64,000 bases of DNA from Sulfurimonas sp. CG01_land_8_20_14_3_00_36_23 (GCA_002781365.1 PETN01000010.1:13556-77555); one strand, 5' to 3'. Shown: positions 640-62,027, counted from the first letter of the stretch. A program made the numbers and translations. The notes: a model not told the origin generated them from the sequence alone.

Positions 640-1905
640 ATGGATTTACAGACAAAAGCACTACATGCTGGCTATGAGAAAGATTCACAGGGGACAATGG
701 CTGTTCCTATCTACATGACAACTGCTTATGAATTTCGTGATGTTGAACATGCTGCAAATTTGTTTGCCCTAAAAGAGTTAGGCAATATCTACACACGTCT
801 GAACAATCCAACTACTGATGTTTTTGAGAAGCGTTTTGCAGAACTAGAGGGCGGAGAAGCGGCACTTGCAACTTCAAGCGGAATGAGTGCAATCTTTTTT
901 GCTATTGCAAATGCTGCTGAAGCAGGTGACAACATCGTATGTGCGAAACAACTTTATGGTGGAAGTTTAACGCAAACTGCACATACACTCAAACGTTTTG
1001 GAATCGAAGCGAGATTTTTTGATGTGCATCAACCAGAGCAGATTGAAGCACTTGTAGATGAGAAGACAAAAGTTATCTTTTTTGAGTCTTTAACAAACCC
1101 TAGTATTGATGTGGCAGATATTGAAGCTATCACTACTATCGCAAACAAATATGGAATCTTAACAGTTGTAGATAACACAGTTGCTACTCCTGTTTTATGC
1201 CGTCCTTTTGAGCATGGAGCGGACATCTCAGTTCACAGTGCATCTAAATATACAACAGGGCAAGGTCTTGCTATCGGCGGGATTTTAGTAGAGAGAAAAG
1301 GTCTTCTTGAAAAACTAAAAGGAAATGCACGTTACGCTCATTTTAATGAGCCAGATCACTCTTACCACGGTTTAGTTTATGTGGATGTTCCTCTTCCTCC
1401 TTTTACACTTCGCGCACGTCTCTCACTTCTTCGTGATTTAGGTGCAGTTGTATCTCCATTTAACTCTTGGCTTTTTATTCAAGGGATGGAGACACTTTCA
1501 CTTAGAATGAGAGAACACTCTAAAAATGCTCAAGAGCTTGCAGAATTTTTAGAGTCTCACCCTAAAGTAAAAAAAGTGAACTATCCAGGACTCAAAAGTA
1601 ACTCAAACTATGCAAACGCACAAAAATATTTTCAAGGCGGAGCATGTTCAGGACTTTTAAGTTTTGAAGTAGAGAGTTTAGAAGAGGCGACTAAAATTGT
1701 AGATGCGACTGAGCTTTACTCTTTAGTTGTGAACATAGGTGACTCAAAATCAATCATCACGCACCCTGCTTCTACAACACATCAACAACTAAGCCAAGAA
1801 GAACTTTTGGCATGTGGAGTTCCAGCTGGACTTATCAGAATCTCTTGCGGATTAGAGTCTATAAAAGATTTAATCGCAGATATAAAACAAGCTTTAGAAG
1901 CGTAA
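640..1905 (+). CDS. metY: O-acetylhomoserine aminocarboxypropyltransferase (OAH/OAS sulfhydrylase)
   Basis: GNIYTRLNNPT, SASKY PLP lysine, VNIGDSKS, THPASTTH; adjacent to metX. Confidence 0.92.
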   Translation: MDLQTKALHAGYEKDSQGTMAVPIYMTTAYEFRDVEHAANLFALKELGNIYTRLNNPTTDVFEKRFAELEGGEAALATSSGMSAIFFAIANAAEAGDNIVCAKQLYGGSLTQTAHTLKRFGIEARFFDVHQPEQIEALVDEKTKVIFFESLTNPSIDVADIEAITTIANKYGILTVVDNTVATPVLCRPFEHGADISVHSASKYTTGQGLAIGGILVERKGLLEKLKGNARYAHFNEPDHSYHGLVYVDVPLPPFTLRARLSLLRDLGAVVSPFNSWLFIQGMETLSLRMREHSKNAQELAEFLESHPKVKKVNYPGLKSNSNYANAQKYFQGGACSGLLSFEVESLEEATKIVDATELYSLVVNIGDSKSIITHPASTTHQQLSQEELLACGVPAGLIRISCGLESIKDLIADIKQALEA

Positions 1906-1920
1906 CCCACCATAGAAATA

Positions 1921-1960
1921 CTCTAAGGGGCTGGATTTTCAGCCCCTTAGAGACCTTTTT
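1921..1960 (+). terminator. Intrinsic terminator after metY
   Basis: 13-bp stem CTCTAAGGGGCTG/CAGCCCCTTAGAG (1921-1952), 6-nt loop, then ACCTTTTT. Confidence 0.75.
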
Positions 1961-1980
1961 ACCCCAATCAAAATTTGCAT

Positions 1981-3315: not shown

Positions 3316-3324
3316 GGAACGAGA

Positions 3325-4147: not shown

Positions 4148-4819
4148 ATGATGCAATATTTTCACAGACAAGTACAACTTTGGGGAGAAGAGACGCAGAT
4201 GCTCCTTCAAACAAAAAGAGTAGCCATCATAGGTTCTGGAGGTCTTGGAAGCTCCTTAGCTTTTGCTTTGGGAGCGAGCGGAATAGGTGAAATCCACATG
4301 GTGGATTTTGATGAAGTAAGCCATCACAACATTCACCGCCAAATCGCTTTTAAGCTCGGGGATGAAAAGAAAAACAAAGCAGTTATCAATGCACAAATTA
4401 TCCAAGAGAGATCCCCTTTTGTAAAAGCATTTGCACATGAATGCGATTTTAATGCCTTCTCACAAAAAGGGATTGAAGTCGATTTGATTCTCGATGCAAC
4501 AGATAATCTTCCAAGCCGTGGAGAGATTAACGCCTATGCAAAAACAAAAGCTCTTCCTTGGGTCTATGGGAGTGTAGAGGCTTTTCACGGGCAAGTCGCT
4601 TTTATAGAGGAGTCCTCATTTAGTGATGCTTTTAAAATTATAAAAAAAGCACCTGCAGGGATTGCCGCACCTATCGTGATGCATATCGCCTCACTACAAG
4701 CAAATCTAGCACTAAGATATTTAGCAGGACTCACTGTTAAGAAAGATTTGCTCTACTATCTCTGCTTTAATGATGAGGGTGAATTGATTACGCAAAAATT
4801 TGGACTTCCAAAAGCGTAA
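4148..4819 (+). CDS. ThiF/MoeB family adenylyltransferase
   Basis: RQVQLWG, GSGGLG, VDFDEVSHHNIHRQ, DATDN. Confidence 0.85.
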   Translation: MMQYFHRQVQLWGEETQMLLQTKRVAIIGSGGLGSSLAFALGASGIGEIHMVDFDEVSHHNIHRQIAFKLGDEKKNKAVINAQIIQERSPFVKAFAHECDFNAFSQKGIEVDLILDATDNLPSRGEINAYAKTKALPWVYGSVEAFHGQVAFIEESSFSDAFKIIKKAPAGIAAPIVMHIASLQANLALRYLAGLTVKKDLLYYLCFNDEGELITQKFGLPKA

Positions 4820-4847: not shown

Positions 4848-4877
4848 TTGGCATGTGGAAATATTTCCACATGCCAA
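4848..4877. terminator. Perfect 30-bp palindrome made of two inverted copies of the 13-mer motif; likely bidirectional terminator
   Basis: TTGGCATGTGGAA-ATAT-TTCCACATGCCAA between convergent stops at 4819 (+) and 4906 (-). Confidence 0.75.
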
Positions 4878-4905: not shown

Positions 4906-5310
4906 TTAGAAAGAAGCGATATGTCGAGAAACTAAACGAATATCTTCTGCGCTCAATTTAGAGACTTGACCATGCATAATAGCTTTAAACTCGCCACCGT
5001 ATGTTCCATTTTGATAACCGACTAATGCCGCACTTACACGCTCAGCCGACCAACCATTAATAACTTGCGATTTTCCAAGTGCTGTATTTTTTGCATTGTG
5101 TCCGTGACAACTTGCACACGCTCTAAAGATGGTTGCACCATCATTTTGTACCACTTTTTTTGGCTCACTTAGTACAAGTTCTTGGGACTTCTCTTTAAAA
5201 ATTCCATCTGCTGAAACTTTTTGCAAGATATTTATATCATCACTGCATCCAGTAAATAAAAAAAGTAATATCGTTAAGGTTATGAGTTTCACACTAGCTT
5301 CCTTGTTCAA
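4906..5310 (-). CDS. Monoheme c-type cytochrome (c553-like), probable lipoprotein
   Basis: CASCH heme motif, distal Met (KAIMHGQ), LFTGC lipobox. Confidence 0.85.
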   Translation of the reverse strand: MNKEASVKLITLTILLFLFTGCSDDINILQKVSADGIFKEKSQELVLSEPKKVVQNDGATIFRACASCHGHNAKNTALGKSQVINGWSAERVSAALVGYQNGTYGGEFKAIMHGQVSKLSAEDIRLVSRHIASF

Positions 5311-6260: not shown

Positions 6261-7406
6261 ATGAATTTTGAACCCTATCCATTTGAAAAACTAAATATTT
6301 TACTTGATGAAATTACGCCAAATCCTAACTATAAGCCATCTGTTTTGACGATTGGTGAGCCTCAGTTTGAGACGCCTGATTTTATACAAAAAGCACTTTG
6401 TGACAGCTCTGCTTTGCTTAGAAGATACCCTAAAACTTCTGGCGAGGAGAGTCTCGTTGAAGCTCAATTGGAATTTGTTTCTAAAAGATTTAACACACAA
6501 CTCAAAACAGAACAAATTATTCCAACTTTTGGAACAAGAGAGGTACTCTTTAACTTTCCACAATTTTTACTTTTTGATGTAAAAGAGCCTGTTATGGCTT
6601 TTACAAACCCTTTTTATCAGATTTATGAGGGTGCGGCTATCGCCTCCAAAGCAAAAATGATTCTTTTAAATATGGATGAGAGTAACCAGTTTAAACCCGA
6701 GAGAGATGAAGAACTTTTAGCGCAATGTGACCTTGTTATCCTTAACTTTCCAAACAATCCAACTGGTTCTACCCTCACTGTAGAGGAGCTTGGTGTGTGG
6801 GTTTCACTCGCCCTAAAACACGATTTTGTGCTTATCAATGATGAGTGCTACAGTGAAATTTATACGGACAAGCCAATTCCCTCTCTTCTTGAGGCTTCCA
6901 CTTCTGTAGGAAACAGTGATTTTAAAAATGTTTTAGTCATCAACTCTATCTCTAAACGCTCCTCTGCACCAGGACTTCGTTCAGGTTTTATCGCAGGAGA
7001 TGCGGCTATTTTAAAAGAGTATATGAAGTACAGAACCTACATAGGGTGTGCTTCTCCACTTCCTCTTCAAAGTGCCGCAGCCGCTGCATGGAGAGAAGAG
7101 GAGCATGTTGCCCTCTCTCGAGCTGTTTATAAAAAGAACTTTGAGTTAGCAAAAGAGATTTTAGACATAGAGATTCCACATGCCACTTTTTACATCTGGC
7201 TCAAAGTCAAAAACCCACTCGAATTTACAAAAAAACTTTATAAAGAGTACAATGTAAAAGTACTCCCTGGAGAGTATCTCGCACGAGAAGATGCAAAGGG
7301 AGCAAATCCTGGCAAAGATTTTGTCCGTATTGCTTTAGTTGAAGAGAGTGAAAAGACCAAAGAAGCTTTGCTTAGAATAAAGGAGTGTTTACAATGCGTA
7401 AAATAG
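6261..7406 (+). CDS. dapC: Succinyldiaminopimelate transaminase (class I/II PLP aminotransferase)
   Basis: NFPNNPTG, NDECYSE, SISKRSSAPGLRSG. Confidence 0.85.
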   Translation: MNFEPYPFEKLNILLDEITPNPNYKPSVLTIGEPQFETPDFIQKALCDSSALLRRYPKTSGEESLVEAQLEFVSKRFNTQLKTEQIIPTFGTREVLFNFPQFLLFDVKEPVMAFTNPFYQIYEGAAIASKAKMILLNMDESNQFKPERDEELLAQCDLVILNFPNNPTGSTLTVEELGVWVSLALKHDFVLINDECYSEIYTDKPIPSLLEASTSVGNSDFKNVLVINSISKRSSAPGLRSGFIAGDAAILKEYMKYRTYIGCASPLPLQSAAAAAWREEEHVALSRAVYKKNFELAKEILDIEIPHATFYIWLKVKNPLEFTKKLYKEYNVKVLPGEYLAREDAKGANPGKDFVRIALVEESEKTKEALLRIKECLQCVK

Positions 7407-7901: not shown

Positions 7902-9215
7902 ATGAAAATTCACTTTATCGGAATTGGCGGCATCGGTATCTCAGGACTTGCACAATACATGCATTACCAAGGGCATGAGGTAAGCGGTTCAGATATTTCA
8001 GACTCCCTTCTTACAAAAAACTTACGAAAACTAGGGATAAAAGTAACAGTTCCACATGCCAAAAGTGCTATAAGTGATCAGGATTTAGTAATCCACTCAG
8101 CGATTATCTCTCCCTTAAATCCAGAGATACTCCAAGCAAAAGAGAGAGGTATCGAAGTTTTAGCACGACGTGAAGCACTGCTTAGAATCCTTAACAAATC
8201 AAAAGTTTACTCTGTTGCAGGCGCACATGGAAAAAGTACAACGACGGCTATCTTAGCATCTATCATGCAAGGCTCGGCGATTATCGGCGCTGAGTCCAAA
8301 GCATTTGGTTCTAATGTAAGATACGATGAGACAACGGATGTAATGCTTTTTGAAGCAGATGAGAGTGATGGAAGTTTTATCAACTCCAATCCACACTGCG
8401 CCATAGTGATCAATGCTGAACCTGAGCACATGGAGTATTATGACTACAATTACGATAGATTTTATGACTCCTACACAAAATTTATAAGCTCTGCACCTTG
8501 CCGTGTTTTAAATGCAGAAGACCCATTTTTAGGGACACTCGTCGAGAAGATAGATGCGCATTGGCTCTACCCAAGCCGTGATATTGACAATCTAGAGTTC
8601 ATCCTGATTGAGGATGAACCGCATACACGCTTTACCTTAAAAGATTTGGGCACTTTTAATGTCTGGGGATTTGGAAGACATATCGCAATCGATGCCTCTT
8701 TAGCGATTTTAGCGGCACATGAGTCTATGAATATAGAGGAGATTCGAACGAATATTCTTACTTTCAAAGGTATCAAAAAACGCTTTGATATTGTAGGTTC
8801 ACAAATAGACAATGTCATTATTGATGATTATGGTCACCATCCAACAGAGATTAAAGCAACTTTTCAATCTGTGAGAGAGTATGCGGCACTCAAAGGTTTT
8901 GACAAGATTACAGCTATCTGGCAACCGCATAAATACTCTCGCACTATCGATAATCTCGAAGAGTTTATCAAATGTTTCCAAGGTGCAGAGGAGCTCATTA
9001 TCCTCCCTGTTTGGGCGGCAGGTGAAATACCAAGAGATATAGATTTCAAAGAGAAATTTAAAGGCTACAACCTTACAATGGCAGATACGATAAAAAGAGA
9101 GAAAAACAGTATCACTATCATTAAAGACAAAAAAGATTTACAGACTTTAGATAAGGGTCTCATCATTGGCTTTGGAGCTGGAGATTTAACCTATCAAATT
9201 AGAGGAATCGCTTAA
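7902..9215 (+). CDS. murC: UDP-N-acetylmuramate--L-alanine ligase
   Basis: HFIGIGGIGISG, GAHGKSTTT, EADESDG, DDYGHHPTE. Confidence 0.96.
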   Translation: MKIHFIGIGGIGISGLAQYMHYQGHEVSGSDISDSLLTKNLRKLGIKVTVPHAKSAISDQDLVIHSAIISPLNPEILQAKERGIEVLARREALLRILNKSKVYSVAGAHGKSTTTAILASIMQGSAIIGAESKAFGSNVRYDETTDVMLFEADESDGSFINSNPHCAIVINAEPEHMEYYDYNYDRFYDSYTKFISSAPCRVLNAEDPFLGTLVEKIDAHWLYPSRDIDNLEFILIEDEPHTRFTLKDLGTFNVWGFGRHIAIDASLAILAAHESMNIEEIRTNILTFKGIKKRFDIVGSQIDNVIIDDYGHHPTEIKATFQSVREYAALKGFDKITAIWQPHKYSRTIDNLEEFIKCFQGAEELIILPVWAAGEIPRDIDFKEKFKGYNLTMADTIKREKNSITIIKDKKDLQTLDKGLIIGFGAGDLTYQIRGIA

Positions 9216-9544
9216 TGGCATATATCGCAGGATTGGTAATTACAGGGCTTTTCTTTTTAAGCCTTCACTACTTTACAGAACTAAAAACTTCTCAAAAAGC
9301 AACTGTTACGGCTATTGTTTTGAGCATTATTTTATCAGCAGTCGCTTTTAATGCCTATAGCACTGCCCAAAGAGAGAGCATGATGAAGGCAGTCATAAAA
9401 TTCAATCAAAATAAAACTATCCGTTGTGATGGGGTGGATGTAAACAACTCTTTATACAGTATCAGTATAGGGACCTACACGTTTATAGGTAAAGAGAACA
9501 CTCCCAACTACGGACAGATGATTAGTGCATCCACTTGCGAGTAG
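9215..9544 (+). CDS. Hypothetical membrane protein
   Basis: Two N-terminal TM segments; coupled to the murC stop. Confidence 0.7.
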   Translation: MAYIAGLVITGLFFLSLHYFTELKTSQKATVTAIVLSIILSAVAFNAYSTAQRESMMKAVIKFNQNKTIRCDGVDVNNSLYSISIGTYTFIGKENTPNYGQMISASTCE

Positions 9545-11757
9545 AGAGTCAACCATCTAAAATTGAGTTGCTTATCGCTCAACTCGATTTAAACGAGCAT
9601 ATCAACGCCTTCAAATACTTCTTTTCAAGAGAACATTCGCTCTATATCGAGGGCGATCAAGAGCTTCACTTTCGCTACATCAAAGCACTCGATGCCATTG
9701 AGTTTAAAGCACCTCCAAAAATCTCAGACTTTACTAACATCTTAGGACACCTTAAAAAAAGAGGTGTTTTGAACTTTGAACAAGTTTTTGAGATTGTAAA
9801 AATTGTACGCTACTTCAGATACTTTAAAAACCGTGAACTCGATGGTATCATCGGTGAGTGGATGAGTAAGTTTGTCATCGATGAAAGATTTTTAGAGATA
9901 GAAAAGTACTTCACGCATGATGGCAAGTTTGAAGAGAATCTCGATGAGACACTTTTCAAACTCTCGCAACGTATCAAAGAGCATAAGAGCAGTATGAATG
10001 AGTCACTCAAAAGAGTGATGTCAAGCTCAAAACTTGCAGGATATTTAGTGGATTCCCAAGTCCATTTTATCAATAATGAGGAGTCTCTTTTGGTGCGTGG
10101 CGGATTTAACCATGTTCTCAAAGGTGCGGTCATCTCAAGAAGTACAGGCGGATTTTTCTACGTTTCCCCTGACATTATTTTAAAAACAAAAGAGTCTATT
10201 CGCTACATTGAGCAAGAGAGAGAGGCAATTTTTTACACCTATGCCAAAGAGTTCTCTTCAAAACTGACAGAACTCCTTAGCTTTATAGCTTTCATAGACA
10301 AAGAGTTTACGAAGTTTGACAACTACCAAGCCAGAGTTCTCTTTGCCAGAAGTAAAAACTACCAAATACTCAAATCCAAAAGTGACTCGAGAATCATTTT
10401 AGATGGTTTTATGCACCCTGCTCTACACAAACCAAAACCTATCCATGTTGATTTTTCTAAAAATATATTGATGATAACAGGTGTCAATGCAGGTGGAAAG
10501 ACGATGCTTCTTAAGTCGATTCTCTCTGCTGCTTTTATGGCTAAATATATCATTCCTATGAAGATTAATGAGAACAAATCCCATATAGGCTCCTTTAAAG
10601 TTATCTCCGCCATCATCGATGACCCGCAAAATGTCAAAAATGACATCTCTACTTTTGCAGGTCGTATGCAGGAGTTTTCCCGTATCTTTGAAAACAGGGC
10701 TGCCTTAGTTGGAGTCGATGAGATTGAGTTAGGTACAGATAGTGACGAAGCAGCGGCTCTCTTTAAAGTAATTCTCGATGATTTAGTCTCCAAGGGTCAA
10801 AAAGTAGTTGTAACCACACACCATAAAAGACTCGCAGCACTGATGGCTGACCGTGAAGATGTGGAACTTATGGCAGCTATCTATGATGAAGCGGCTAGAC
10901 TCCCAACCTACGAATTTATGCAAGGAATCATCGGAAAGAGTTACGCCTTTGAGACAGCAAGCCGCTATGGCATCTCAAACAAGATAGTCAATGAAGCCAA
11001 AAGTGTTTATGGCGATAACTCGGAGCGACTCAACCTTCTTATAGAGAGAGGTTCACAGCTTGAACGTGAGCTCAAACAAAAGCACAAACAAGTGGATGAG
11101 AAACTCGACGAATTGCACAAAAAAGAGCTCAATCTCCAAGAGGAGCGAGAGAAAATCTTTCTTGAGTTGCAAGAGCAAAAAAATGCCCTTATCAAGAGTT
11201 ATGAGGTAGCTATTTCTGAGGCGAAGTTAGCCGCAAAAGCGGGGGATACCACAGCAATACATAGAGCCATGAGTAGAGCCAACAAAGAGCTTCCAAAAGA
11301 GAAGAAAACCCAAAATGTTCGGCATGTGGAATTTAAAGTGGGAGACACGGTAAAGTACCACAGCAAAAAAGGTGTCATCATCTCTTTAACAGATAAAAAA
11401 GATGCGATGATAGAGGTAGAGGGGATGCGACTTCGTGTGCAGACAAGCCAGTTAAAGCATACGCAAATCATTCCACAAAAGCCAAAAACAGACTTCAAAC
11501 TTAATGTACAAAAAAGAGCTGGACTCAAGTGTGACTTACATGGAATGCGAGCCGAGGAAGCCGAAGAGGTTTTAGATACCTTCCTCTCAGATGCACTTTT
11601 AAATGGCTGGGATGAAGTAATTATTTATCACGGCATTGGAACTGGAAAACTCTCTTATGCTGTGAAAAACTTCCTCAAAACACACCCAAAAGTGAAAAAG
11701 TTTGAAGACGCGCCTCAACATATGGGTGGCTTCGGTGCAAAAATTGTCACGCTCTAA
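9535..11757 (+). CDS. mutS2: Endonuclease MutS2
   Basis: TGVNAGGKT P-loop, DEIELGTD, TTHHKRL, C-terminal Smr domain (DLHG..IYHGIGTG). Confidence 0.93.
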   Translation: MRVESQPSKIELLIAQLDLNEHINAFKYFFSREHSLYIEGDQELHFRYIKALDAIEFKAPPKISDFTNILGHLKKRGVLNFEQVFEIVKIVRYFRYFKNRELDGIIGEWMSKFVIDERFLEIEKYFTHDGKFEENLDETLFKLSQRIKEHKSSMNESLKRVMSSSKLAGYLVDSQVHFINNEESLLVRGGFNHVLKGAVISRSTGGFFYVSPDIILKTKESIRYIEQEREAIFYTYAKEFSSKLTELLSFIAFIDKEFTKFDNYQARVLFARSKNYQILKSKSDSRIILDGFMHPALHKPKPIHVDFSKNILMITGVNAGGKTMLLKSILSAAFMAKYIIPMKINENKSHIGSFKVISAIIDDPQNVKNDISTFAGRMQEFSRIFENRAALVGVDEIELGTDSDEAAALFKVILDDLVSKGQKVVVTTHHKRLAALMADREDVELMAAIYDEAARLPTYEFMQGIIGKSYAFETASRYGISNKIVNEAKSVYGDNSERLNLLIERGSQLERELKQKHKQVDEKLDELHKKELNLQEEREKIFLELQEQKNALIKSYEVAISEAKLAAKAGDTTAIHRAMSRANKELPKEKKTQNVRHVEFKVGDTVKYHSKKGVIISLTDKKDAMIEVEGMRLRVQTSQLKHTQIIPQKPKTDFKLNVQKRAGLKCDLHGMRAEEAEEVLDTFLSDALLNGWDEVIIYHGIGTGKLSYAVKNFLKTHPKVKKFEDAPQHMGGFGAKIVTL

Positions 11758-15747: not shown

Positions 15748-15791
15748 ACAAAATAGAGATAAACTGAGCCATCATAAAAAAGGATTTCCAC

Positions 15792-28965: not shown

Positions 28966-29000
28966 CTTGGCATGTGGAAGTATAACTTCCACATGCCAAA
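28966..29000. terminator. Inverted pair of the 13-mer motif; likely bidirectional terminator
   Basis: TTGGCATGTGGAAGT-ATA-ACTTCCACATGCCAA (28967-28999), 15-bp stem between convergent yqeY and trpC stops. Confidence 0.75.
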
Positions 29001-42262: not shown

Positions 42263-42302
42263 TTTGGCATGTGGAAATGTATTAGCATGTGGAAATGTAT
42301 TA
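42263..42302. repeat. 18-bp tandem duplication holding two motif copies
   Basis: GCATGTGGAAATGTATTA at 42267-42284 and 42285-42302, between convergent stops. Confidence 0.9.
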
Positions 42303-53184: not shown

Positions 53185-53271
53185 TATTTCTCAACACCAT
53201 TTTCGCTCTCATATTTCTGGAATAGTCTTCAAAAACTCCACTATTTCTTTCCTTTGGCTATAATTCCATCA

Positions 53272-55254
53272 ATGAAGAAGAAACCAGATTTTAAAGTAGT
53301 ATCACCTTATAAGCCAGCAGGTGATCAGCCTACAGCTATTAAAGCACTCACAGACTCTATACTCAAAGGGAATCGTTATCAAACACTTGAAGGTGTTACC
53401 GGTAGTGGTAAAACCCACACGATGGCACGTATTATAGAGAATGTAAAGATGCCTACCATCATTATGACTCATAACAAAACATTAGCCGCACAGCTCTACT
53501 CCGAATTTCGTCAGTTTTTTCCAAACAATCATGTTGAATATTTTGTGTCGTACTATGATTATTATCAGCCAGAAGCGTACATTCCTCGTCAAGATTTATT
53601 TATAGAAAAAGATAGTGCTATCAATGATGAACTTGAGCGTATGAGACTCTCTTCTACGGCAAATCTTCTCTCTTATGATGATGTTATCGTTATAGCTTCT
53701 GTCTCTGCGAACTATGGTTTGGGAGACCCTGAAGAGTATCTCAATATGGTTCAAGCGTTAGAAGTTGGAGATGAGATTAACCAAAAAACACTTTTACTTC
53801 GCCTTGTTGAGATGGGTTACTCTAGAAATGACAGTTATTTTGATAGTGGACATATTCGTGTAAATGGAGAGAGTTTAGATATTTACCCACCCTACTTCGA
53901 ACAAGAAGCTATTCGTATTGAGTTTTTTGGAGATGAGATTGAGGCTATTTACACCTTTGATACTATTGACAATAAACGACTTGAAGATCACAAAAAATTT
54001 ACCATCTATGCAACATCACAGTTTAGCGTATCTCAGGAAAAGATGAGTGTTGCGATTAAACGCATAGAAGAGGAGCTTGATGAAAGACTTGCTTACTTTA
54101 CAAGTCAAGGAAAACTTTTAGAGCATCAAAGACTCAAACAGAGAGTTGAGTTTGATTTAGAGATGCTTCAAACTACTGGCATGTGTAAAGGAGTTGAAAA
54201 CTACTCACGCTTACTTACAAACAAGAAAACAGGAGAAGCACCTTTTACCCTGCTCGATTATTTTGCACAAAACAACAAAGAGTATCTCGTTATAGTAGAT
54301 GAATCTCATGTTTCACTGCCGCAATATAGGGGAATGTATGCTGGTGATAGAGCGAGAAAAGAGGTTTTAGTGGAGTATGGGTTTAGACTGCCAAGTGCCC
54401 TAGACAACCGCCCACTCAAAGCAGATGAGTATATCAATAAAGCACCACACTATCTTTTTGTATCAGCAACTCCATCCGCGTACGAGCTTGAGATGTCAAG
54501 TGTAACTGCATCTCAAATCATCCGTCCAACTGGACTACTTGACCCTATCATAGAGATAAAATCATCAGATAACCAAGTTGAAGATATTCACGATGAGATT
54601 AAAAAAATAATTGTAAATGATGAGAGAGTTCTCATTACAGTTTTAACGAAAAAAATGGCTGAGGCCCTTACAAAGTATCTAGCCGACTTAGGTATAAAAG
54701 TTCAGTATATGCACTCAGATATTGACACTATTGAGAGAAATCAGATTATTCGCGCTTTACGAGTTGGTGAGTTTGATGTACTTATTGGAATCAATCTTCT
54801 TCGAGAGGGGTTAGATTTACCAGAAGTCAGCTTAGTTGCCATTTTAGATGCTGATAAAGAGGGGTTTTTAAGAAGTGAGACGGCTTTGGTACAAACAATC
54901 GGTCGAGGAGCTAGAAATTCAAAGGGTAGAGTTATTTTGTATGCAAACAAAATAACAGGTTCGATGCAAAGAGCGATAGATAAAACAACTGCAAGACGAG
55001 AGATTCAAGAAGCACATAATAAAGCGCATGGAATCACTCCAACTACAACAAAACGCTCTCTTGATGAAAATTTAAAACTAGAAGAGCATGGCGACCTCTA
55101 CCAAAAACATAAAAAAATGGATAAAATACCTGCAGCAGAAAAAAAAGCGATAACAAAAGAGCTTATGCTCAAGATGAAACAAGCGGCAAAAGAGTTAAAC
55201 TTTGAAGAAGCCGCTCGTCTTCGTGATGAAATAATGAAAATTAAACAACTTTAG
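53272..55254 (+). CDS. uvrB: Excinuclease ABC subunit B
   Basis: [43 protein letters not shown]. Start set at ATG 53272 because TTG 53254 overlaps the TATAAT box. Confidence 0.96.
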
Positions 55255-55261: not shown

Positions 55262-55831
55262 ATGGAAGAAACATTTAGTAATTTAGCTACTTATGGGTAT
55301 ATAGGGCTTTTCCTTTATTCACTTGGCGGTGGTTTTGTGGCACTGATAGGTGCAGGGGTCTTATCTTTTATGGGAAAAATGGATTTGTCACTCTCAATAA
55401 TGATAGCTTTTTTTGCAAATGCCTTAGGTGATGTTTTACTTTTTTATATGGCAAGATATCAAAAAAGTATGATGATGGAGGGGCTGAGAAAACACAGAAG
55501 AAAACTTGCACTTTCTCACCTCTTAATGAAAAGATATGGTTCATGGATTATCTTATTTCAAAAATTTGTTTACGGGATAAAAACACTGATTCCAATTGCT
55601 ATTGGTCTTACAAAATATGACTTTAAAAAATTTATAATATTAAATATTCTAAGTGCAGCTGTTTGGGCTTTAACATTTGGGCTTGGAAGTTACTATTCTG
55701 GAAGTTTTTTAGTAAAAGTTGCGGAAACCATAGGGGATAAACCTTGGATAGCACCTATTATTTTGTTTGTTTTTGGTGGACTTTTGTGGCTCTATCTCAC
55801 TCAAGCTACAAAGAGAAAAAAAAGAGTTTAG
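55262..55831 (+). CDS. DedA family membrane protein
   Basis: GD..LF..ARY, KRYG...FQKFVYGIKTLIP..IG. Confidence 0.85.
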   Translation: MEETFSNLATYGYIGLFLYSLGGGFVALIGAGVLSFMGKMDLSLSIMIAFFANALGDVLLFYMARYQKSMMMEGLRKHRRKLALSHLLMKRYGSWIILFQKFVYGIKTLIPIAIGLTKYDFKKFIILNILSAAVWALTFGLGSYYSGSFLVKVAETIGDKPWIAPIILFVFGGLLWLYLTQATKRKKRV

Positions 55832-55834: not shown

Positions 55835-55862
55835 TTCCACATGCTAAAACAGAAAGTTTTAG
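55835..55862. terminator. Variant motif copy plus short hairpin between convergent dedA and pckA
   Basis: TTCCACATGCTAA 55835-55847 overlapping CTAAAAC-AGAAA-GTTTTAG 55844-55862. Confidence 0.5.
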
Positions 55863-57449
55863 TTAACTTTCTATTTTAGGGCCTGCAGCCGAATAATCAA
55901 ATTCACTGTCTGCGGTTTGATATTTTTTGAAATTATCTATAAACATCTGAGCCAATTTATCTCTCGCTTTATCAAATTCATTTACATCACTCCATGCTTC
56001 TCTTGGGGAAAGCACTTTAGGATTAATATCACCAAGAGTTGTCGGAACATTTAATCTAAATGTTGTTGTCGTGATAAATTCACTCTCATTGATTGAACCA
56101 TCTAAGACTGCGTTTATACAAGCTCTTGTATCTTTAATACTCATACGCTTTCCAATACCATATGGACCACCTGCCCAACCAGTATTTACAAGATACACAT
56201 TGACACCATGCTTATCTATTTTATCTCCTAAAAGCTTTGCATAGACAGTAGGATGAAGAGGTAAGAAAGCTTCTCCAAAACATGAACTAAATGTTGCAAC
56301 TGGCTCAGTAATACCACGCTCTGTTCCTGCAACCTTTGCAGTATATCCACTTAAAAAATAGTACATTGCTTGTTCTTTTGTAAGCTTTGAGACGGGAGGG
56401 AGGACACCAAAAGCATCCGCAGTTAAGAAAATTATATTTTTAGGATGTCCTGCACTTAAAGATTCTTTGTGATTTTCAATATGTTCAATTGGGTAAGAAG
56501 CACGTGTATTTTCTGTTTTTGAACCATCTTCATAATCAACTTCGCCTTCTCCATACATCACAACATTTTCTAAAAGAGCACCAGCTCTAATAGCATTGTA
56601 TATTTCAGGTTCACTTTTTTCATCAAGATTGATAACTTTAGCATAACATCCACCTTCAAAATTGAAGACACCATGATTATCCCAACCATGCTCATCATCC
56701 CCGATTAAAGCACGATGTGGATCTGTTGAAAGTGTCGTTTTACCTGTCCCACTTAAACCAAAGAAGAGCGCTGTATCTCCATCTTTACCAACATTTGCAG
56801 AACAGTGCATTGCAAGTTTACCCTCGAGTGGCAACCAGTAGTTCATCATTGAAAAAATTCCTTTTTTCATCTCTCCACCGTACCACGTTCCACCAATAAT
56901 TGCGATATTGTTTTCAACATCAAATAGAACAAACACTTCAGAGTTCATTCCATGTTCTTCCCACTTTTCATTCACTGCTTTACATGCATTTAAAACTGTA
57001 AAATCTGAGTTAAACACTTCTAGTTCTGATTCAGTAGGACGGATAAACATATTTTTCACAAAGTGTGATTGCCATGCTATTTCGGAGATAAAACGGATAG
57101 ATTTTTTTGAAGCTGCACTTGCACCACAGAAAACGTCTGTTATGTACAAATCTTTGTTTGAGAGTTGTTCTTGCGCGACAGCTAAAAGTTCTGCAAAAAC
57201 TTCTGCACTAATTTTCTTGTTTACATCACCCCATGCTATATATTTATTTGAAGGGTCTGCATTAACAAAATATTTATCTTTTGGACTACGACCAGTAAAG
57301 ATACCAGTATCAACAGCGGTTGCGCCTTTTTTTGTAAGCGTACACTCACCATTTTCCAGTTCATGTTTGATTAGTTCATCATAACTTAGATTATGATAAA
57401 CCTTTCCAACATTTTTTATGCCTATATCTTCTAACTCAGTCAAATTCAT
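55863..57449 (-). CDS. pckA: Phosphoenolpyruvate carboxykinase (ATP)
   Basis: [39 protein letters not shown]. Confidence 0.97.
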
Positions 57450-58498: not shown

Positions 58499-59668
58499 TT
58501 ATCTTTTATTGATTGCTAAGGCAGAGTTTACCCCACTACTAAAAGCCCATTGAAAATTATAACCGCCGAGTTCACCAGTAATATCTACCACTTCACCGAT
58601 GCAGTATAAATTTTCCACATGCCGTGATTCTAATGTTTTTGGATTTAGATTTTCAGTTAAAATACCACCACGGCTCACCTCTGCTTTAGTAAAACCAAAA
58701 TTTCCTGCCGGTGCAAATTCATAATTGTGAATCCTTTCGAGTTGTTTTTTGGCATGCCTGCCCTCTTTGGTTGAGGGTTGATTGAGTCTCTTGCATGCTA
58801 CATCCTCTATATCTAGCGCTATTAAAATTTCTTTTGATAGCCTTTTTGCAAGTGGTATCACAGAACTGAGTAGTTTATTGCTTCCTTTAATGAGTTCAAA
58901 TATATTCTCATTTGGCAAAAAGTCTATACTTATATTTCCTTTTTTCCAATAAAGTGAAGCGGACAAAACCGCAGGTCCACTGATACCACGATGTGCAAAA
59001 AGCATCTCCTCTTTTAAAACTTTATCTTCTACTTTGATATGTACATAAGCACTCAGTCCACTTAAACTTTTCATCCAAAACTGCTCTTTTTGGAGTGTCA
59101 TTCCGACAAGAGCTGGAGTAAACTCTTTTACACTAAGTCCAAAGCTTTTTGCTATCTCTAAGCCTATTTCACTTGCACCGAGAGTTTTATAACTTTTTCC
59201 ACCAGTTGCTAAAACAAGTTTTTTTGATTTCAAAACACCGTTTGAAGTTTTTATTTCAAAAATATCATTCGCTTTATGTACCTCTAAAATCTCTCTATTT
59301 AAAAGCATTTCCACATGCCGAGAATTTCTTTTAAGAACATCTATCATCTCGTCTGAACTCTCTTTACAAAAGTAGTAACGATTTTTTCTGATTACAGGTT
59401 TTACTCCGTTATTATGTAAAAAGTGTAGTAAATCATCTTTGGAAAAAGTCTGAAGAGAGTGAGAAATAAACTCTGCATCTCCGTCATAGTTATCTACACT
59501 TACGTTTACATTGGTAATATTACATTTTCCACCACCTGAAATTTTTAATTTACAGGCAACTTTAGAGTTAACATCCACAGCTCCAACTTTATATTTTTTA
59601 TCTAAATAAGCAGCGCACATGAGCCCGCTTGCCCCAGCACCGAGAATAATTACATCATATATTTTCAT
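58499..59668 (-). CDS. HI0933/BaiN-family flavoprotein (second paralogue)
   Basis: ILGAGASG, KLKISGGGKCNITN, FAHRGISGP, GEVVDITGELGGYNFQWA. Confidence 0.9.
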   Translation of the reverse strand: MKIYDVIILGAGASGLMCAAYLDKKYKVGAVDVNSKVACKLKISGGGKCNITNVNVSVDNYDGDAEFISHSLQTFSKDDLLHFLHNNGVKPVIRKNRYYFCKESSDEMIDVLKRNSRHVEMLLNREILEVHKANDIFEIKTSNGVLKSKKLVLATGGKSYKTLGASEIGLEIAKSFGLSVKEFTPALVGMTLQKEQFWMKSLSGLSAYVHIKVEDKVLKEEMLFAHRGISGPAVLSASLYWKKGNISIDFLPNENIFELIKGSNKLLSSVIPLAKRLSKEILIALDIEDVACKRLNQPSTKEGRHAKKQLERIHNYEFAPAGNFGFTKAEVSRGGILTENLNPKTLESRHVENLYCIGEVVDITGELGGYNFQWAFSSGVNSALAINKR

Positions 59669-59719
59669 CTTCACATTATACGATATAATACGAAAATAAT
59701 TTAATATAAAAGTAGCAAT

Positions 59720-61033
59720 ATGAGCAATAAACTACACATAGTCTCTCTAGGCTGTACGAAAAATCTTGTAGATACCGAAGTAATGATGGGAAAACTCCAA
59801 AATTTCGAACTAACTGATAACTCAGGAGAAGCGGATGTCATCATAGTCAATACTTGTGGATTTATAGATGCGGCTAAAGCAGAATCTGTAAACACGGTAC
59901 TTAATTTACACGAAGGACGCAAAGAAGATTCAGTTTTAGTTATGGCTGGTTGTTTAAGTGAAAGATATAAAGAAGACCTTATGGCTGATATGCCAGAAGT
60001 TGATATATTTACTGGGGTTGGTGACTATGACAGAATTGATGACCTTTTATCTGAAAAAAAGAGCAGATTTTCTGAGAAAGTTTTTTTGATAGATGGAGCG
60101 GAGAGAGTTGTTACTGGTTCCACCTATCATGCCTATGTAAAACTCTCTGAGGGTTGTAACCAAACATGTAGTTTTTGTGCGATTCCATCTTTTAAAGGGA
60201 AGCTCAACTCTAGAAACTTAGACTCAATTGCCAAAGAAGTGGAAGGTTTGGTCGCTAAAGGCTATTATGACTTCTCTTTTGTTTCACAAGATAGCAGTTC
60301 TTACCTTCGTGATCAAAATATTAAAGATGGGCTAAGTCTTCTTATTCAAAGGATTGAACTTATTGAGGGTGTAAAAAGTGCAAGGATTCTTTATCTTTAC
60401 CCTTCTACTACAACGATACAATTACTAAAAAATATAGCTAAAAGTGAAATTTTTCATAACTATTTCGATATGCCGATTCAGCATATTAATGATGAGATGC
60501 TCCATATGATGAGAAGAGGTTTCGGCAAAGATAAAACGCTTGAACTTCTCAACTTTATGCGCTCTTTGCCTAACTCTTTTGTCCGTACAAGTTTTATCGT
60601 TGGTCATCCAAATGAAACAGAGGAGATGTTTGAGGAGATGTGTGAATTTGCTTCAAGTTTTGGGTTTGACAGAATCAATGTTTTCTCCTATTCAGATGAA
60701 GAAACAACTCCAGCCTACGACATGAGCAATAAAATATCGGCAGAACTTATTGCAAGCAGAGCAGAAATCCTTGGAGAGATAGCTTCAGAGTGCACTGAGC
60801 TCTCTCTACGCAAAGAGGTTGGTCAAGATATTGAACTTGTTATTGATGGGGAGAGTGAGGAGCATGAGTATCTTTTAAGTGCGAGAAAACTTCTCTGGGC
60901 ACCTGAAATTGATGGTGAAATTTATGTAAATGACAGAACAAAAGAAGAGGAACTCGATTTTGGAGTTATTTACAGAGCAAAAGTAACCGATCTGATTGGC
61001 AATATTTTAACTGCCACAGTAGACAATGCTTGA
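59720..61033 (+). CDS. rimO: Ribosomal protein S12 methylthiotransferase
   Basis: SLGCTKNLVDTE, NTCGFI, EGCNQTCSFCAIP, APEIDG. Confidence 0.95.
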   Translation: MSNKLHIVSLGCTKNLVDTEVMMGKLQNFELTDNSGEADVIIVNTCGFIDAAKAESVNTVLNLHEGRKEDSVLVMAGCLSERYKEDLMADMPEVDIFTGVGDYDRIDDLLSEKKSRFSEKVFLIDGAERVVTGSTYHAYVKLSEGCNQTCSFCAIPSFKGKLNSRNLDSIAKEVEGLVAKGYYDFSFVSQDSSSYLRDQNIKDGLSLLIQRIELIEGVKSARILYLYPSTTTIQLLKNIAKSEIFHNYFDMPIQHINDEMLHMMRRGFGKDKTLELLNFMRSLPNSFVRTSFIVGHPNETEEMFEEMCEFASSFGFDRINVFSYSDEETTPAYDMSNKISAELIASRAEILGEIASECTELSLRKEVGQDIELVIDGESEEHEYLLSARKLLWAPEIDGEIYVNDRTKEEELDFGVIYRAKVTDLIGNILTATVDNA

Positions 61034-62027
61034 AAATTCATCTCTAGAAATTCTAAAAAATAAGAAAAACCTCCTAGCCTTTTCAGCGGGAGTAGATTCA
61101 ACTGCTCTCTTCTTTTTACTTCTACAGAACAACATTCCATTTGATATTGCAATAGTCAATTACAATGTCAGAGAGCAGAGTCAAGAAGAGCTGCAATACG
61201 CGCATGAGTTAGCAAGCACGCACAACCTTAAAATTCACTCTTTGAATGCCCCAAAAATAGATAAAAACTTTGAAGCAAAAGCCAGAGAAATCAGATACAA
61301 CTTTTTTGAAGAACTTATTAAGAATCATGGCTATGAGAACTTAATTACTGCACACCATCTTGGGGATAGGTTCGAGTGGATGCTTATGCAATTTTGTAAA
61401 GGTGCTGGCTGTGCTGAGATTGCAGGTATGCAAAGAGTGCAACACAGAGACTCCTACACACTCGTGCGCCCACTACTGAAGTTAGACAAAAAAGAGTTAT
61501 TCGCCTATTTAGATGCGAACAAGATTAAATATTTTGAAGATGAGAGTAATCTTGATGAGGATATAAAAAGAAACTCTTTTCGTCACAGTTATGCTTCTCC
61601 ACTTTTAGAGAAATACCTAGCGGGAATCAAAAAGAGTTTTGACTATTTAGATGAAGATAGAGCCTCTTTAATTCAAGAAGCAGAGATAAACAATATAGAT
61701 GCGTTTGCGTACTTCAAAATGCAACACAATAGAAGATCTGACATTTTTATAATAGACAAATATTTAAAATCAAAATCTTATATGCTAAGTGCAAGTGAAA
61801 GAGAACTGCTTAAAACAGTAAATGTTGCGGTTGTTGGGAGAAAGTTTGTAATCAATATAGAGAGATGTTTTGTATTTATTCTTCCCTATCTACAAAAGAG
61901 TTTCCACATGCCAAAAGAGTTTAAAGAGGAGTGCAGAGTATTAAAGATAGAACCAAAACTACGACTCTACCTCTACAAGAATCCAGAGGCTTTTTTAAAG
62001 ATAAAAGAGCTACTTCGTACTATTTGA
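61026..62027 (+). CDS. tilS: tRNA(Ile)-lysidine synthetase
   Basis: AFSAGVDS, AREIRY, TAHHLGD, RPLL, FEDESN..RNSFR. Confidence 0.93.
   Translation: MLENSSLEILKNKKNLLAFSAGVDSTALFFLLLQNNIPFDIAIVNYNVREQSQEELQYAHELASTHNLKIHSLNAPKIDKNFEAKAREIRYNFFEELIKNHGYENLITAHHLGDRFEWMLMQFCKGAGCAEIAGMQRVQHRDSYTLVRPLLKLDKKELFAYLDANKIKYFEDESNLDEDIKRNSFRHSYASPLLEKYLAGIKKSFDYLDEDRASLIQEAEINNIDAFAYFKMQHNRRSDIFIIDKYLKSKSYMLSASERELLKTVNVAVVGRKFVINIERCFVFILPYLQKSFHMPKEFKEECRVLKIEPKLRLYLYKNPEAFLKIKELLRTI

What the first reader, a model, noticed from the sequence alone, without database searches (positions are those of the whole stretch)
1809..61912. Dispersed 11-13 bp motif TTCCACATGCC(AA): candidate undescribed DNA uptake sequence in a Campylobacterota
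Seen: at least 19 exact 11-mers (12 on +, 7 on -), of which 14 extend to TTCCACATGCCAA, plus at least 9 copies with one mismatch. That is about one exact copy per 3.4 kb. A rough zero-order expectation at about 35% GC is about 0.01 copies per window, so enrichment is roughly 1000-fold. The motif is non-palindromic, occurs in both orientations, sits inside core genes (dapC, murC, mutS2, helicase, valS, kdsB, tilS) and forms inverted pairs between convergent genes. Established: this combination defines the Neisseria DUS (GCCGTCTGAA) and Pasteurellaceae USS (AAGTGCGGT), which bias natural transformation toward self DNA. Known Campylobacterota selectivity is instead methylation-based (C. jejuni CtsM, RAATTY). 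Inference: an independently evolved, sequence-specific self-DNA uptake signal. The alternative is a genome-wide binding site for an unknown chromosome protein.
Basis: partly seen in the sequence, partly recalled or inferred. Interest (0 to 1): 0.96.

Follow-up and report, generated by a model that had tools for sequence, protein, structure and literature searches.

The report
Uptake-sequence-like DNA word in Sulfurimonas
This uncultured sulfur bacterium (Sulfurimonas) carries the word TTCCACATGCCAA about 500 to 1,000 times more often than chance across its whole genome, showing nearly all the sequence hallmarks of the "self-DNA" uptake tags known only from Neisseria and Haemophilus relatives, but nobody has tested whether it steers DNA uptake.

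Summary

The enrichment is genome-wide:
- The 2.43 Mb genome holds 742 11-mers and 905 copies of the 10-mer core TCCACATGCC, against 0.5-6 expected.
- The logo is about 16 bp (ATTTCCACATGCCAAA), with no conserved flanks.
- There is no replication-strand bias (301 leading, 325 lagging).

Its behaviour matches DUS/USS:
- It is 10-fold denser between convergent genes than in coding DNA.
- 77 close inverted pairs form hairpins.
- Copies arise by point substitutions, some of which change amino acids. PHA and ACG are the most over-represented tripeptides.
- It is sparse in defence, polysaccharide and mobile islands, and also in the most conserved operons.

Thirteen of 194 Sulfurimonas species carry hundreds to 1,300 copies, and sister lineages carry remnants or other words (TTTCACATGCCAA, CTTACATGTAAG, AAACGCAG). 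ComEC, DprA, secretins, a T2SS/Cts-like cluster and pilins are present. None of the nine pilin-like proteins tested has a ComP-type domain.

Best reading: a DUS/USS-like uptake sequence (about 0.55), with uptake untested. No searched paper describes it. This scan had already noted the same word in other Sulfurimonas genomes.

The parts
4848..4877 (.). Inverted pair TTGGCATGTGGAA-ATAT-TTCCACATGCCAA between convergent ORFs 4148..4819(+) and 4906..5310(-). Perfect 13-bp hairpin with no U tract.
   Evidence: dG -21 kcal/mol, z -5.7 and -7.1
7174..7184 (+). Exact 11-mer inside dapC (6261..7406 +), sense strand
8050..8062 (+). Exact 13-mer inside murC (7902..9215 +), sense strand
11319..11331 (-). 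Exact 11-mer inside mutS2 (9535..11757 +), antisense
14715..14727 (+). Exact 13-mer inside the flavoprotein gene 14518..15747(+). The same gene holds a further exact copy at 15452-15464 and near copies at 15186 and 15371.
15452..15464 (+). Exact 13-mer, second copy in gene 14518..15747(+)
15786..15798 (+). Exact 13-mer at the junction of ORFs 14518..15747 and 15792..16346
19436..19448 (-). Exact 13-mer, sense strand of the UvrD/PcrA-type helicase gene (18154..20235 -), encoding F-P-H-A-K. About 45 motif-poor relatives have P-D/E/N-A (CCA GAT GCA) at this position.
21905..21917 (-). Exact 11-mer antisense in valS, coding strand GGG CAT GTG GAA = GHVE. It is shared by 12 of the 13 motif-rich species. 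Motif-poor relatives have GGT TTT GTA, GGA AGC GTT or GGA CAT GTA.
22055..22067 (-). One-mismatch copy (TTCCACATGCGAA) antisense in valS (S-H-V-E)
28967..28999 (.). Inverted pair TTGGCATGTGGAAG-TATAA-CTTCCACATGCCAA between convergent ORFs 28515..28958(+) and 29005..29790(-). 15-bp hairpin.
   Evidence: dG -24.8 and -25.2 kcal/mol
31420..31432 (-). Exact 13-mer, sense strand of the 126-aa ORF 31108..31488(-), which has no NCBIfam match
32386..32398 (+). Exact 13-mer inside kdsB (32237..32953 +)
35147..35159 (+). Exact 13-mer immediately 3' of ORF 35160..35588(-), intergenic
42264..42294 (-). Two direct copies 18 bp apart, one exact and one TTCCACATGCTAA, between convergent ORFs 41161..42240(+) and 42300..43694(-). 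A small version of the tandem arrays found elsewhere in the genome.
58613..58623 (+). Exact 11-mer antisense in flavoprotein gene 58499..59674(-)
59309..59321 (+). Exact 11-mer antisense in flavoprotein gene 58499..59674(-)
61902..61914 (+). Exact 13-mer inside tilS (61026..62027 +)
1809..1819 (-). One-mismatch copy (CTCCACATGCC) in the O-acetylhomoserine sulfhydrylase gene 640..1905(+)
25589..25599 (-). One-mismatch copy (ATCCACATGCC) in ORF 24744..26282(+)
41022..41032 (+). One-mismatch copy (TTTCACATGCC) in ORF 38918..41098(+)
54178..54188 (-). One-mismatch copy (TTACACATGCC) in ORF 53254..55254(+)
55835..55847 (+). One-mismatch copy (TTCCACATGCTAA), intergenic between convergent ORFs 55262..55831(+) and 55863..57449(-)

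Best explanation
ATTTCCACATGCCAAA, with the core TCCACATGCC, is a DNA-uptake-sequence-like 'self' word of one group of Sulfurimonas species. The proposed mechanism has four steps. (1, inferred) Competent cells bind double-stranded DNA through a receptor on a type IV pilus or a T2SS/Cts-like pseudopilus that prefers this word. The DNA passes a secretin, ComEC imports one strand, and DprA and RecA recombine it. (2, footprint shown) Fragments that carry the word are taken up and recombined more often, so any mutation that creates or improves a copy is driven through the population. Copies therefore accumulate wherever they are tolerated: gene 3' spacers, often as inverted pairs that double as hairpins, and weakly constrained codons. 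(3, shown) Recently acquired DNA and the most constrained genes stay poor in copies. (4, pattern shown, cause inferred) Changes in receptor specificity give dialects in sister lineages, and loss of the bias lets copies decay.
For: Abundance: 742 11-mers and 905 10-mer cores in 2.43 Mb, against 0.5-6 expected under Markov orders 0-4. It is the top k-mer for k = 9-14. Anatomy: information is confined to about 16 bp with no conserved flanks. Positions 2-10 are 98-100% invariant when the rest of the word matches. No replication polarity: 301 leading against 325 lagging, while genes split 1140 against 467 in the same test. Placement: coding DNA has 0.27 copies per kb, convergent spacers 2.8, tandem spacers 1.5 and divergent spacers 0.86. 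There are 127 neighbouring pairs within 60 bp against 18 expected, 77 of them inverted, mostly intergenic, and the two inverted pairs in the window fold as perfect hairpins. DNA-level drive: PHA (279 against 29 expected) and ACG (198 against 26) are the two most over-represented tripeptides; 81-92% of them use the motif's codons, against 3-10% expected from codon usage. At orthologous sites in valS and the helicase gene, motif-rich species carry the word where dozens of relatives have other synonymous codons or other residues, with no indel. Islands: the deserts include a type I RM/GmrSD/Fic island, a likely type III RM, two low-GC polysaccharide clusters, a TnsA/SocA contig and a transposase/phage-like region. 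Windows below 31% GC hold 0.3 copies per 5 kb against 1.4-2.7 elsewhere. Phylogeny: 13 of 194 Sulfurimonas species have 260-1,307 core copies, 12 have 33-183 and the rest 0-15, with the reversed-word control at 0-3. Rich species sit in three subclades beside poor sisters. Other lineages carry TTTCACATGCCAA, CTTACATGTAAG or AAAACGCAG. Machinery: ComEC, DprA, 3 secretins, 4 T2SSE ATPases, about 10 prepilin-like proteins and a T2SS/Cts-like cluster. All of this parallels published DUS/USS features: terminator pairs, frame bias and dialects (bioRxiv 10.1101/2025.10.24.684340; PMC3630211; PMC2817400).
Against: No uptake or transformation experiment exists, and the organism is an uncultured MAG. The hairpins lack U tracts, so a terminator role is not shown. 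The deserts also include core operons (atp/parAB, SecA/IDH and UvrA by Pfam; nuoLMN, rpoBC and gltBD read by eye only), so 'foreign DNA lacks it' is only part of the pattern. Spacing is over-dispersed (23 gaps of 9 kb or more against 12.7 expected) rather than even. Intergenic tandem arrays of 5 or more units with a 17-18 bp period have no parallel that I know of in DUS/USS and would also suit a binding-site array. No ComP_DUS domain was found in the nine pilin-like proteins tested, so no receptor is identified. Cyanobacterial HIP1 shows that a hyper-abundant word can exist without proven uptake specificity (PMC4390886, PMC5861425). A comparable claim for Thiovulum in this scan was later priced at only 22/100.
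Confidence: 0.55

Rival explanations
1. A HIP1-like word. The word would be kept abundant by a methylation-, nicking- or repair-linked biased gene conversion acting on resident DNA, for example a very-short-patch-type repair tied to a methyltransferase that reads the CATG-containing core. No selectivity at the uptake step would be involved.
For: Copies arise in place by point substitutions, and several are T-to-C on the motif strand (GTA to GTG, GGA to GGG in valS). The core contains the palindrome CATG. One sister dialect is a true palindrome, CTTACATGTAAG, as HIP1 is. HIP1 abundance tracks cognate methyltransferases (PMC4390886). GATC, CCGG and GGCC are strongly avoided (obs/exp 0.17-0.20), so this genome is under heavy restriction-modification pressure.
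Against: The specificity spans 10 near-invariant contiguous bases plus flanks, which, to my knowledge, is longer than the recognition sites usual for methyltransferases or Vsr-type enzymes. The substitutions that create copies also include G-to-C and A-to-C (GAT to CAT, GCA to GCC). CATG itself is neither avoided nor enriched outside the word (obs/exp 0.79). To my knowledge, VSP-type repair has not been reported to give enrichment anywhere near this scale (hundreds-fold). HIP1 itself is now reported to improve transformation (bioRxiv 10.1101/2024.09.10.611283), so this rival partly merges with the main reading.
Confidence: 0.2
2. A genome-wide binding site for an abundant chromosomal DNA-binding protein, such as a nucleoid-organising, condensin-loading or 'self'-marking defence protein. 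Each copy would be kept by selection.
For: The sharp 10-bp specificity is typical of protein recognition. Intergenic tandem arrays with a 17-18 bp period resemble binding-site arrays. Copies cluster in pairs.
Against: About 900 near-exact 10-13-mers placed without regard to region, strand or gene is unlike matS, parS, SlmA, Noc or KOPS. Copies are forced into proteins at the cost of amino-acid changes. Close sister species have lost about 90% of copies or switched to another word. That is hard to reconcile with an essential architectural role. The word avoids the most expressed and conserved operons.
Confidence: 0.15
3. Remnants or ends of a tiny mobile element (REP, MITE or IS target), or a polar recombination or translocation signal (Chi, KOPS).
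For: The copy number is high, and some copies form inverted pairs in spacers as REPs do.
Against: There are no conserved flanks beyond 16 bp. 65% of copies lie in frame inside genes. Orthologous alignments show substitutions, not insertions. There is no strand polarity. No Rfam family matches in the window except one tRNA.
Confidence: 0.03

Closest known systems
DNA uptake sequence (DUS, GCCGTCTGAA / AT-DUS and its dialects) of Neisseriaceae, read by the minor pilin ComP
   Same: A 10-13 bp non-palindromic word with hundreds to thousands of copies. It occurs on both strands without replication polarity, in genes and spacers, and as inverted pairs at gene 3' ends. It shows reading-frame bias and lineage-specific dialects among related species (PMC3630211; bioRxiv 10.1101/2025.10.24.684340).
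   Different: The sequence is unrelated and the phylum is different (Campylobacterota). No ComP_DUS domain was found in the nine pilin-like proteins tested. Density is lower, about 1 per 2.7 kb. The hairpins lack U tracts. Tandem arrays with a 17-18 bp period occur. Uptake bias is untested.
Uptake signal sequence (USS, AAGTGCGGT core with flanking AT tracts) of Pasteurellaceae
   Same: A strict core with softer A/T-rich flanks (ATTT...AAA here). Most copies are in coding DNA. The proteome is reshaped by motif-encoded tripeptides that sit at less constrained positions, as described in PMC2817400. The molecular-drive logic is the same.
   Different: The sequence and lineage are unrelated. The core here is longer and far less tolerant of mismatches (98-100% at 9 positions). 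The receptor is unknown in both.
HIP1 (GCGATCGC) of cyanobacteria
   Same: A hyper-abundant word in genes and spacers, conserved at the DNA level, with its function long unresolved and now linked to transformation and HGT (PMC5861425; PMC4390886; bioRxiv 10.1101/2024.09.10.611283; PMC13756078).
   Different: HIP1 is an 8-bp palindrome, found phylum-wide and tied to the orphan methyltransferases DmtA and DmtC. The word here is non-palindromic, 13-16 bp, confined to some species of one genus, and no methyltransferase link has been tested.
Methylation-based self recognition in Campylobacter jejuni (CtsM, RAATTY) with the Cts T2SS/T4P-like uptake system
   Same: Same phylum. G000 has a T2SS/Cts-like cluster (GspG-like pseudopilin, GspF-like platform, secretin, ATPase and further pseudopilins), a short ComEC and DprA. 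C. jejuni DNA uptake uses such a system and discriminates self DNA at the first step (PMC8468864, PMC10046745).
   Different: The C. jejuni mark is an epigenetic tag on a frequent 6-bp site and leaves no hyper-abundant long word. Here the signal would be written in the base sequence itself.

Membership tests
DUS/USS-type DNA uptake sequences | Genome-wide hyper-abundance of one short word (hundreds to thousands of copies, far above Markov expectation) | tested here: met
   742 11-mers and 905 10-mers in 2.43 Mb against 0.5-6 expected; top k-mer for k = 9-14
DUS/USS-type DNA uptake sequences | Both orientations, no replication-strand polarity, no regional restriction | tested here: met
   301 leading against 325 lagging, with genes at 1140 against 467 as positive control; present on nearly all contigs
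DUS/USS-type DNA uptake sequences | Short word only, with no larger repeat unit; copies arise by substitution within genes and spacers | tested here: met
   Logo confined to about 16 bp; orthologous sites differ by point substitutions without indels
DUS/USS-type DNA uptake sequences | Enrichment at gene 3' ends, often as inverted pairs forming terminator-like hairpins | tested here: met
   Convergent spacers 2.8 per kb against coding 0.27 per kb; 77 inverted pairs within 60 bp; hairpins of -21 to -25 kcal/mol. Termination itself is not shown and there is no U tract.
DUS/USS-type DNA uptake sequences | Reading-frame bias and motif-encoded peptides over-represented in the proteome | tested here: met
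   Frame preferences; PHA, ACG, WHV, GMW and HMP are the top tripeptides, and for the four of these whose codons were counted (PHA, ACG, GMW, HMP) 81-92% are encoded by motif codons
DUS/USS-type DNA uptake sequences | Scarcity in recently acquired or mobile DNA | tested here: met
   Motif-free stretches: RM/GmrSD/Fic island, type III RM, polysaccharide clusters, TnsA/SocA contig, transposase/phage-like region. Conserved core operons are also poor, so this is not the only cause.
DUS/USS-type DNA uptake sequences | Lineage-specific distribution with dialects in related taxa | tested here: met
   13 of 194 species rich, 12 intermediate, the rest at background; ValS tree; other words in other lineages
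DUS/USS-type DNA uptake sequences | Host has the machinery for natural transformation | tested here: met
   ComEC, DprA, secretins, T2SSE ATPases, prepilins and a T2SS/Cts-like cluster.
DUS/USS-type DNA uptake sequences | Uptake or transformation is measurably biased toward DNA that carries the word | not testable with these tools
   Needs competition or uptake assays in a cultured strain
Neisseriaceae DUS/ComP system (homology) | A ComP-type minor pilin (Pfam ComP_DUS) as receptor | tested here: not met
   Nine pilin-like proteins of G000 (eight with an N_methyl match) scanned against Pfam show no ComP_DUS hit at the thresholds used: E <= 1e-6 for three proteins, E <= 0.05 for six. Two further N_methyl ORFs were not scanned.
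HIP1-type highly iterated palindromes | Palindromic word recognised by cognate orphan methyltransferases | tested here: not met
   The word is non-palindromic. The methyltransferase link was not tested.
Chi / KOPS-type polar signals | Strong skew toward the leading strand | tested here: not met
   301 against 325
REP / MITE-type dispersed repeats | Intergenic location and a conserved structured unit longer than the core | tested here: not met
   65% of copies lie inside ORFs; no flank conservation; no Rfam match

The most novel reading that the evidence does not exclude
Sulfurimonas has independently evolved true sequence-specific DNA uptake signals, a third origin after Neisseriaceae and Pasteurellaceae. 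They would be read by a non-ComP receptor of a Cts/T2SS-like or type IV pilus machine. Receptor changes would have produced a family of dialects around an ACATG core (TTCCACATGCCAA, TTTCACATGCCAA, CTTACATGTAAG) plus unrelated words (AAACGCAG). These words would then act as barriers to gene flow that track speciation in an environmental chemolithoautotroph.
Probability: 0.45. Interest if true: 0.9.

Novelty: new variant of a known kind. Interest (0 to 1): 0.8.

Why it matters
Sequence-specific DNA uptake is known from only two families of host-associated Proteobacteria. Its receptor is firmly known in only one of them. Its evolutionary purpose (sex, repair, food, or pure molecular drive) is still debated.

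A third, independent case would be valuable for three reasons:
- It lies in free-living sulfur oxidisers of another phylum.
- It has many dialects and several rich/poor sister pairs within one genus. These give natural replicates for finding the receptor by comparative genomics and for testing the drive model.
- It could show whether uptake words delimit species in the environment.

It would also give geneticists a simple handle, adding the word to donor DNA, for transforming Sulfurimonas strains that carry it.

Tried and rejected
1. MITE/REP reading. Rejected: no flank conservation, copies in frame in genes, and orthologous substitutions rather than insertions.

2. Chi/KOPS reading. Rejected by the GC-skew test.

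3. A replacement word in the intermediate clade (G019, G103, G181, G191, G153). In 22.6 kb of G181 there is no copy of the word and no convincing substitute; AGTTGCAA occurs only 9 times. I read this clade as decay or loss.

4. The CATG methylation or avoidance idea. CATG has obs/exp 0.79, which is uninformative.

5. Recent transfer as the reason why G000, G087 and G129 share the helicase PHA site. Helicase identities are ordinary, so this is not supported.

6. Phage test. A scan of viral contigs for TTTCCACATGCCAA gave only single, chance-level hits. No Sulfurimonas phage could be identified, so the test is uninformative.

7. It has no Pfam support.

8. A ComP homologue. None was found among the pilin-like proteins tested.

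9. The literature. No paper links DUS/USS to Sulfurimonas or Campylobacterota, and the word occurs only in unrelated primer contexts.

As a result I could not do de novo k-mer surveys of relatives, window-wide orthologous-site comparisons, gene/word co-occurrence, a ComEA or Vsr search, or RNA-read tests of the hairpins.

Full report
**Observation.** The window holds 19 exact TTCCACATGCC, 12 on + and 7 on -, against 0.01 expected from dinucleotide shuffles. It holds 14 exact TTCCACATGCCAA and exactly 9 further 11-mers with one mismatch. NCBIfam confirms the genes named: O-acetylhomoserine sulfhydrylase, DapC, MurC, MutS2, a UvrD/PcrA-type helicase, KdsB and TilS. ValS was used as query. Rfam finds only one tRNA in the window, so no known RNA family explains the word.

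**Genome-wide picture.** The window is C78:13556-77555 of a 2.43 Mb, 102-contig genome with 35.9% GC.
- The genome has 742 copies of the 11-mer, 534 of the 13-mer and 905 of the 10-mer core TCCACATGCC. Substrings of the word are the most frequent k-mers for every k from 9 to 14.
- Markov models of order 0-4 predict 0.5-2.2 copies of the 11-mer.
- A logo built on 925 copies of the 9-mer core shows information only from -4 to +11. This gives ATTTCCACATGCCAAA and flat background beyond it, so there is no larger repeat unit.
- With the other 12 positions of the 13-mer fixed, positions 2-10 are 98-100% invariant. Position 1 admits A, position 11 admits T, and positions 12-13 are looser.
- Density is 0.1-0.8 per kb on almost all contigs of 10 kb or more.

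- The enrichment is not confined to the window.
- Using local GC skew to assign the leading strand, 301 copies are leading and 325 lagging. The same procedure puts 1140 of 1607 ORFs on the leading strand, so the test has power and the word has no Chi- or KOPS-like polarity.
- There is no regional restriction.

**Placement.** I used a simple ORF-based gene set of 2,287 ORFs covering 91% of the genome.
- 585 copies lie wholly in ORFs (313 sense, 272 antisense, with clear frame preferences). The other 320 are intergenic or straddle an ORF end.
- Per kb, coding DNA has 0.27 copies, divergent spacers 0.86, tandem spacers 1.5 and convergent spacers 2.8. Thirty per cent of convergent spacers carry at least one copy.
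- Neighbouring copies within 60 bp number 127 against 18 expected. Of these, 77 are inverted, 53 in the arrangement TTGGCATGTGGAA-loop-TTCCACATGCCAA, and they are mostly intergenic.
- The two inverted pairs in the window fold as perfect 13- and 15-bp hairpins of -21 and -25 kcal/mol, far below the shuffles. They have no U tract, so intrinsic termination is not shown.
- The 50 direct pairs include intergenic tandem arrays of five or more units with 17-18 bp periods. The spacer differs from array to array, and several sit at contig ends. The pair at 42264-42294 is a two-unit example.

**A force acting on DNA, not on protein.**
- PHA (279 observed, 29 expected from amino-acid frequencies) and ACG (198 against 26) are the two most over-represented tripeptides of the proteome. 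WHV, GMW and HMP follow.
- For the tripeptides whose codons were counted (PHA, ACG, GMW, HMP), 81-92% are written with exactly the motif's codons, against 3-16% expected from codon usage.
- At the valS site (window 21905-21917), 12 of the 13 word-rich species have GGG CAT GTG GAA (GHVE). Motif-poor relatives have GGT TTT GTA GAA, GGA AGC GTT GAA, or the same peptide written GGA CAT GTA GAA.
- At the helicase site (19436-19448), G000, G087 and G129 have CCA CAT GCC (PHA). About 45 other genomes have P-D/E/N-A, mostly CCA GAT GCA.
- No indels are involved. Copies are therefore made in place by synonymous and non-synonymous point substitutions. This is the behaviour described for USS/DUS in PMC2817400.

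**Where the word is missing.** Gaps of 9 kb or more between relaxed sites number 23 against 12.7 expected. They fall into two classes.
- Accessory DNA:
  - a whole 17-kb contig with a type I RM system, GmrSD and Fic (31% GC);
  - a stretch whose two largest ORFs I read, by eye, as a type III RM pair (the Mod-like one matches phage DNA-methyltransferase families);
  - two polysaccharide clusters (28-29% GC);
  - a TnsA/SocA contig;
  - a transposase/phage-like stretch.
- The most conserved operons: atp/parAB, SecA/IDH and UvrA by Pfam. nuoLMN, rpoBC and gltBD I recognised from their sequences without a family search.
- Windows below 31% GC hold 0.3 copies per 5 kb, against 1.4-2.7 elsewhere.

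Scarcity in foreign DNA is therefore real, but it is not the only cause of deserts.

**Phylogenetic distribution.** ValS places the genome in Sulfurimonas, with best identity of 90-92%.
- Among 194 species genomes of the genus, 13 hold 261-1,307 copies of the 10-mer, 12 hold 33-183 and the rest 0-15. The reversed-word control gives 0-3 everywhere. Genomes of 16 other genera of the order have 0-1.
- On a quick single-gene ValS tree, the rich species fall into three subclades plus one basal species, interleaved with poor lineages. Each subclade contains a poor or intermediate sister: G063 beside G062/G100, G088 beside G169, and a five-species clade beside G068/G180/G102.
- In 22.6 kb of one intermediate genome there is no copy and no replacement word, which I read as decay.
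- Other lineages carry other words in their valS loci:
  - TTTCACATGCCAA in L050;
  - CTTACATGTAAG in a clade nested among the rich species and in L066;
  - AAAACGCAG in L012, L063 and L021.
- Three of these words share ACATG. That may mark a common receptor contact, or it may be chance.

**Machinery.** G000 encodes a short ComEC, DprA, three secretins, four T2SSE-family ATPases and about ten prepilin-like proteins.
- One cluster, C44:36-50 kb, is T2SS/Cts-like. It has a GspG-type pseudopilin, a GspF-type platform, a secretin, an ATPase and further pseudopilins.
- Another, C1:114.5-118.5 kb, has minor-pilin-like proteins next to a DUF6701 protein.
- C1:59.4-60.5 kb has two pilin genes.
- None of the nine pilin-like proteins tested has a ComP_DUS domain. 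If there is a receptor, it is not a recognisable ComP homologue.

**Interpretation.** The combination seen here is known in the literature only for DUS and USS (PMC3630211; PMC2817400; bioRxiv 10.1101/2025.10.24.684340):
- a hyper-abundant, non-palindromic, strand-neutral word of 13-16 bp;
- substitutional origin inside genes, with a proteome footprint;
- hairpin pairs at 3' ends;
- scarcity in foreign islands;
- dialects and decay in sister species;
- a complete competence gene set.

I therefore favour an uptake-bias-driven word, at about 0.55. Uptake itself is inferred, not shown.

The main rival is a HIP1-like drive linked to methylation or repair, at 0.2. It is kept alive by the CATG in the core, the palindromic sister dialect and the T-to-C changes in valS. 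It is weakened by the length and strictness of the word and by the other substitution types.

An abundant DNA-binding protein comes next, at 0.15. It would explain the tandem arrays, but not the rapid loss or switching between sister species, nor the cost to proteins.

Mobile-element and polar-signal readings are rejected.

**Literature and earlier scan notes.** No paper in the searchable library links uptake sequences to Sulfurimonas or Campylobacterota, and the word itself appears only in unrelated primer contexts. Known self-recognition in the phylum is the methylation mark of C. jejuni (PMC8468864; PMC10046745).

This scan had already noted the same word in other Sulfurimonas genomes, and other words in other lineages. 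I re-derived both points from sequence here. A similar Thiovulum claim was later priced at 22/100 for the bold reading, which tempered my odds.

**Limits.** Comparisons with relatives therefore rest on the valS neighbourhood, which covers three motif sites. The tree is a quick single-gene tree. Gene calls are ORF-based. Gene/word co-occurrence and transcript-end tests could not be run.

Noticed in passing
G000 contigs C13:1-100, C94:1-90, C86:4700-4793, C37:2058-2160, C75:35310-35400 (outside the window); small version at window 42264-42294: Intergenic tandem arrays of 5 or more motif units with a 17-18 bp period. The spacer differs from array to array: (GTTTGGCATGTGGAAAT)n, (GTTCGGCATGTGGATTT)n, (CCGGGTTGATTCCACATG)n. 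Three lie at contig ends, so they probably broke the assembly. I know of no such arrays in DUS/USS genomes. They could be slippage products favoured by the drive, or binding-site arrays.
   Followed up: partly
whole genome G000: GATC, CCGG and GGCC are strongly avoided (obs/exp 0.17, 0.17 and 0.20 under a second-order model). This points to long-standing restriction pressure on these sites. CATG is near neutral at 0.79.
   Followed up: no
G000 contig C61 (17.3 kb, whole contig): A motif-free, 31% GC defence island: type I RM (HsdM, HsdS, and a 1,056-aa ORF read by eye as HsdR), a GmrSD-type endonuclease and a Fic protein, plus a large helicase-like ORF.
   Followed up: partly
G000 C44:38592-39032 (-): A pseudopilin of the T2SS/Cts-like cluster begins MRKTFPHAKEAFTLIE. 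A copy of the word (FPHAK) is written into the leader just before the prepilin cleavage motif of a candidate uptake-machine component.
   Followed up: no
G000 C22:46400-58000: A motif-free stretch of many short co-oriented ORFs. It has an IS110-like transposase, a protein matching phage families (phrog_1159, endonuclease-like) and a DNA methyltransferase fragment. It is probably an integrated mobile element.
   Followed up: partly
loci L012, L063, L021; L030, L034, L040, L051, L056, L066; L046, L027; L006, L047; L050: Other Sulfurimonadaceae carry their own over-represented words in the valS neighbourhood: AAAACGCAG; CTTACATGTAAG (8-15 copies of its ACATGTAA core per 5-9 kb locus); AAACGCC(A); ATGATGCA / ATAGATGC; TTTCACATGCCAA. 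Only the first three were looked at in any detail.
   Followed up: partly
A tyrosine-recombinase-like ORF follows beyond the window end (by eye).
   Followed up: partly
window 57634-57705 (+): A tRNA gene, the only Rfam match in the window.
   Followed up: no
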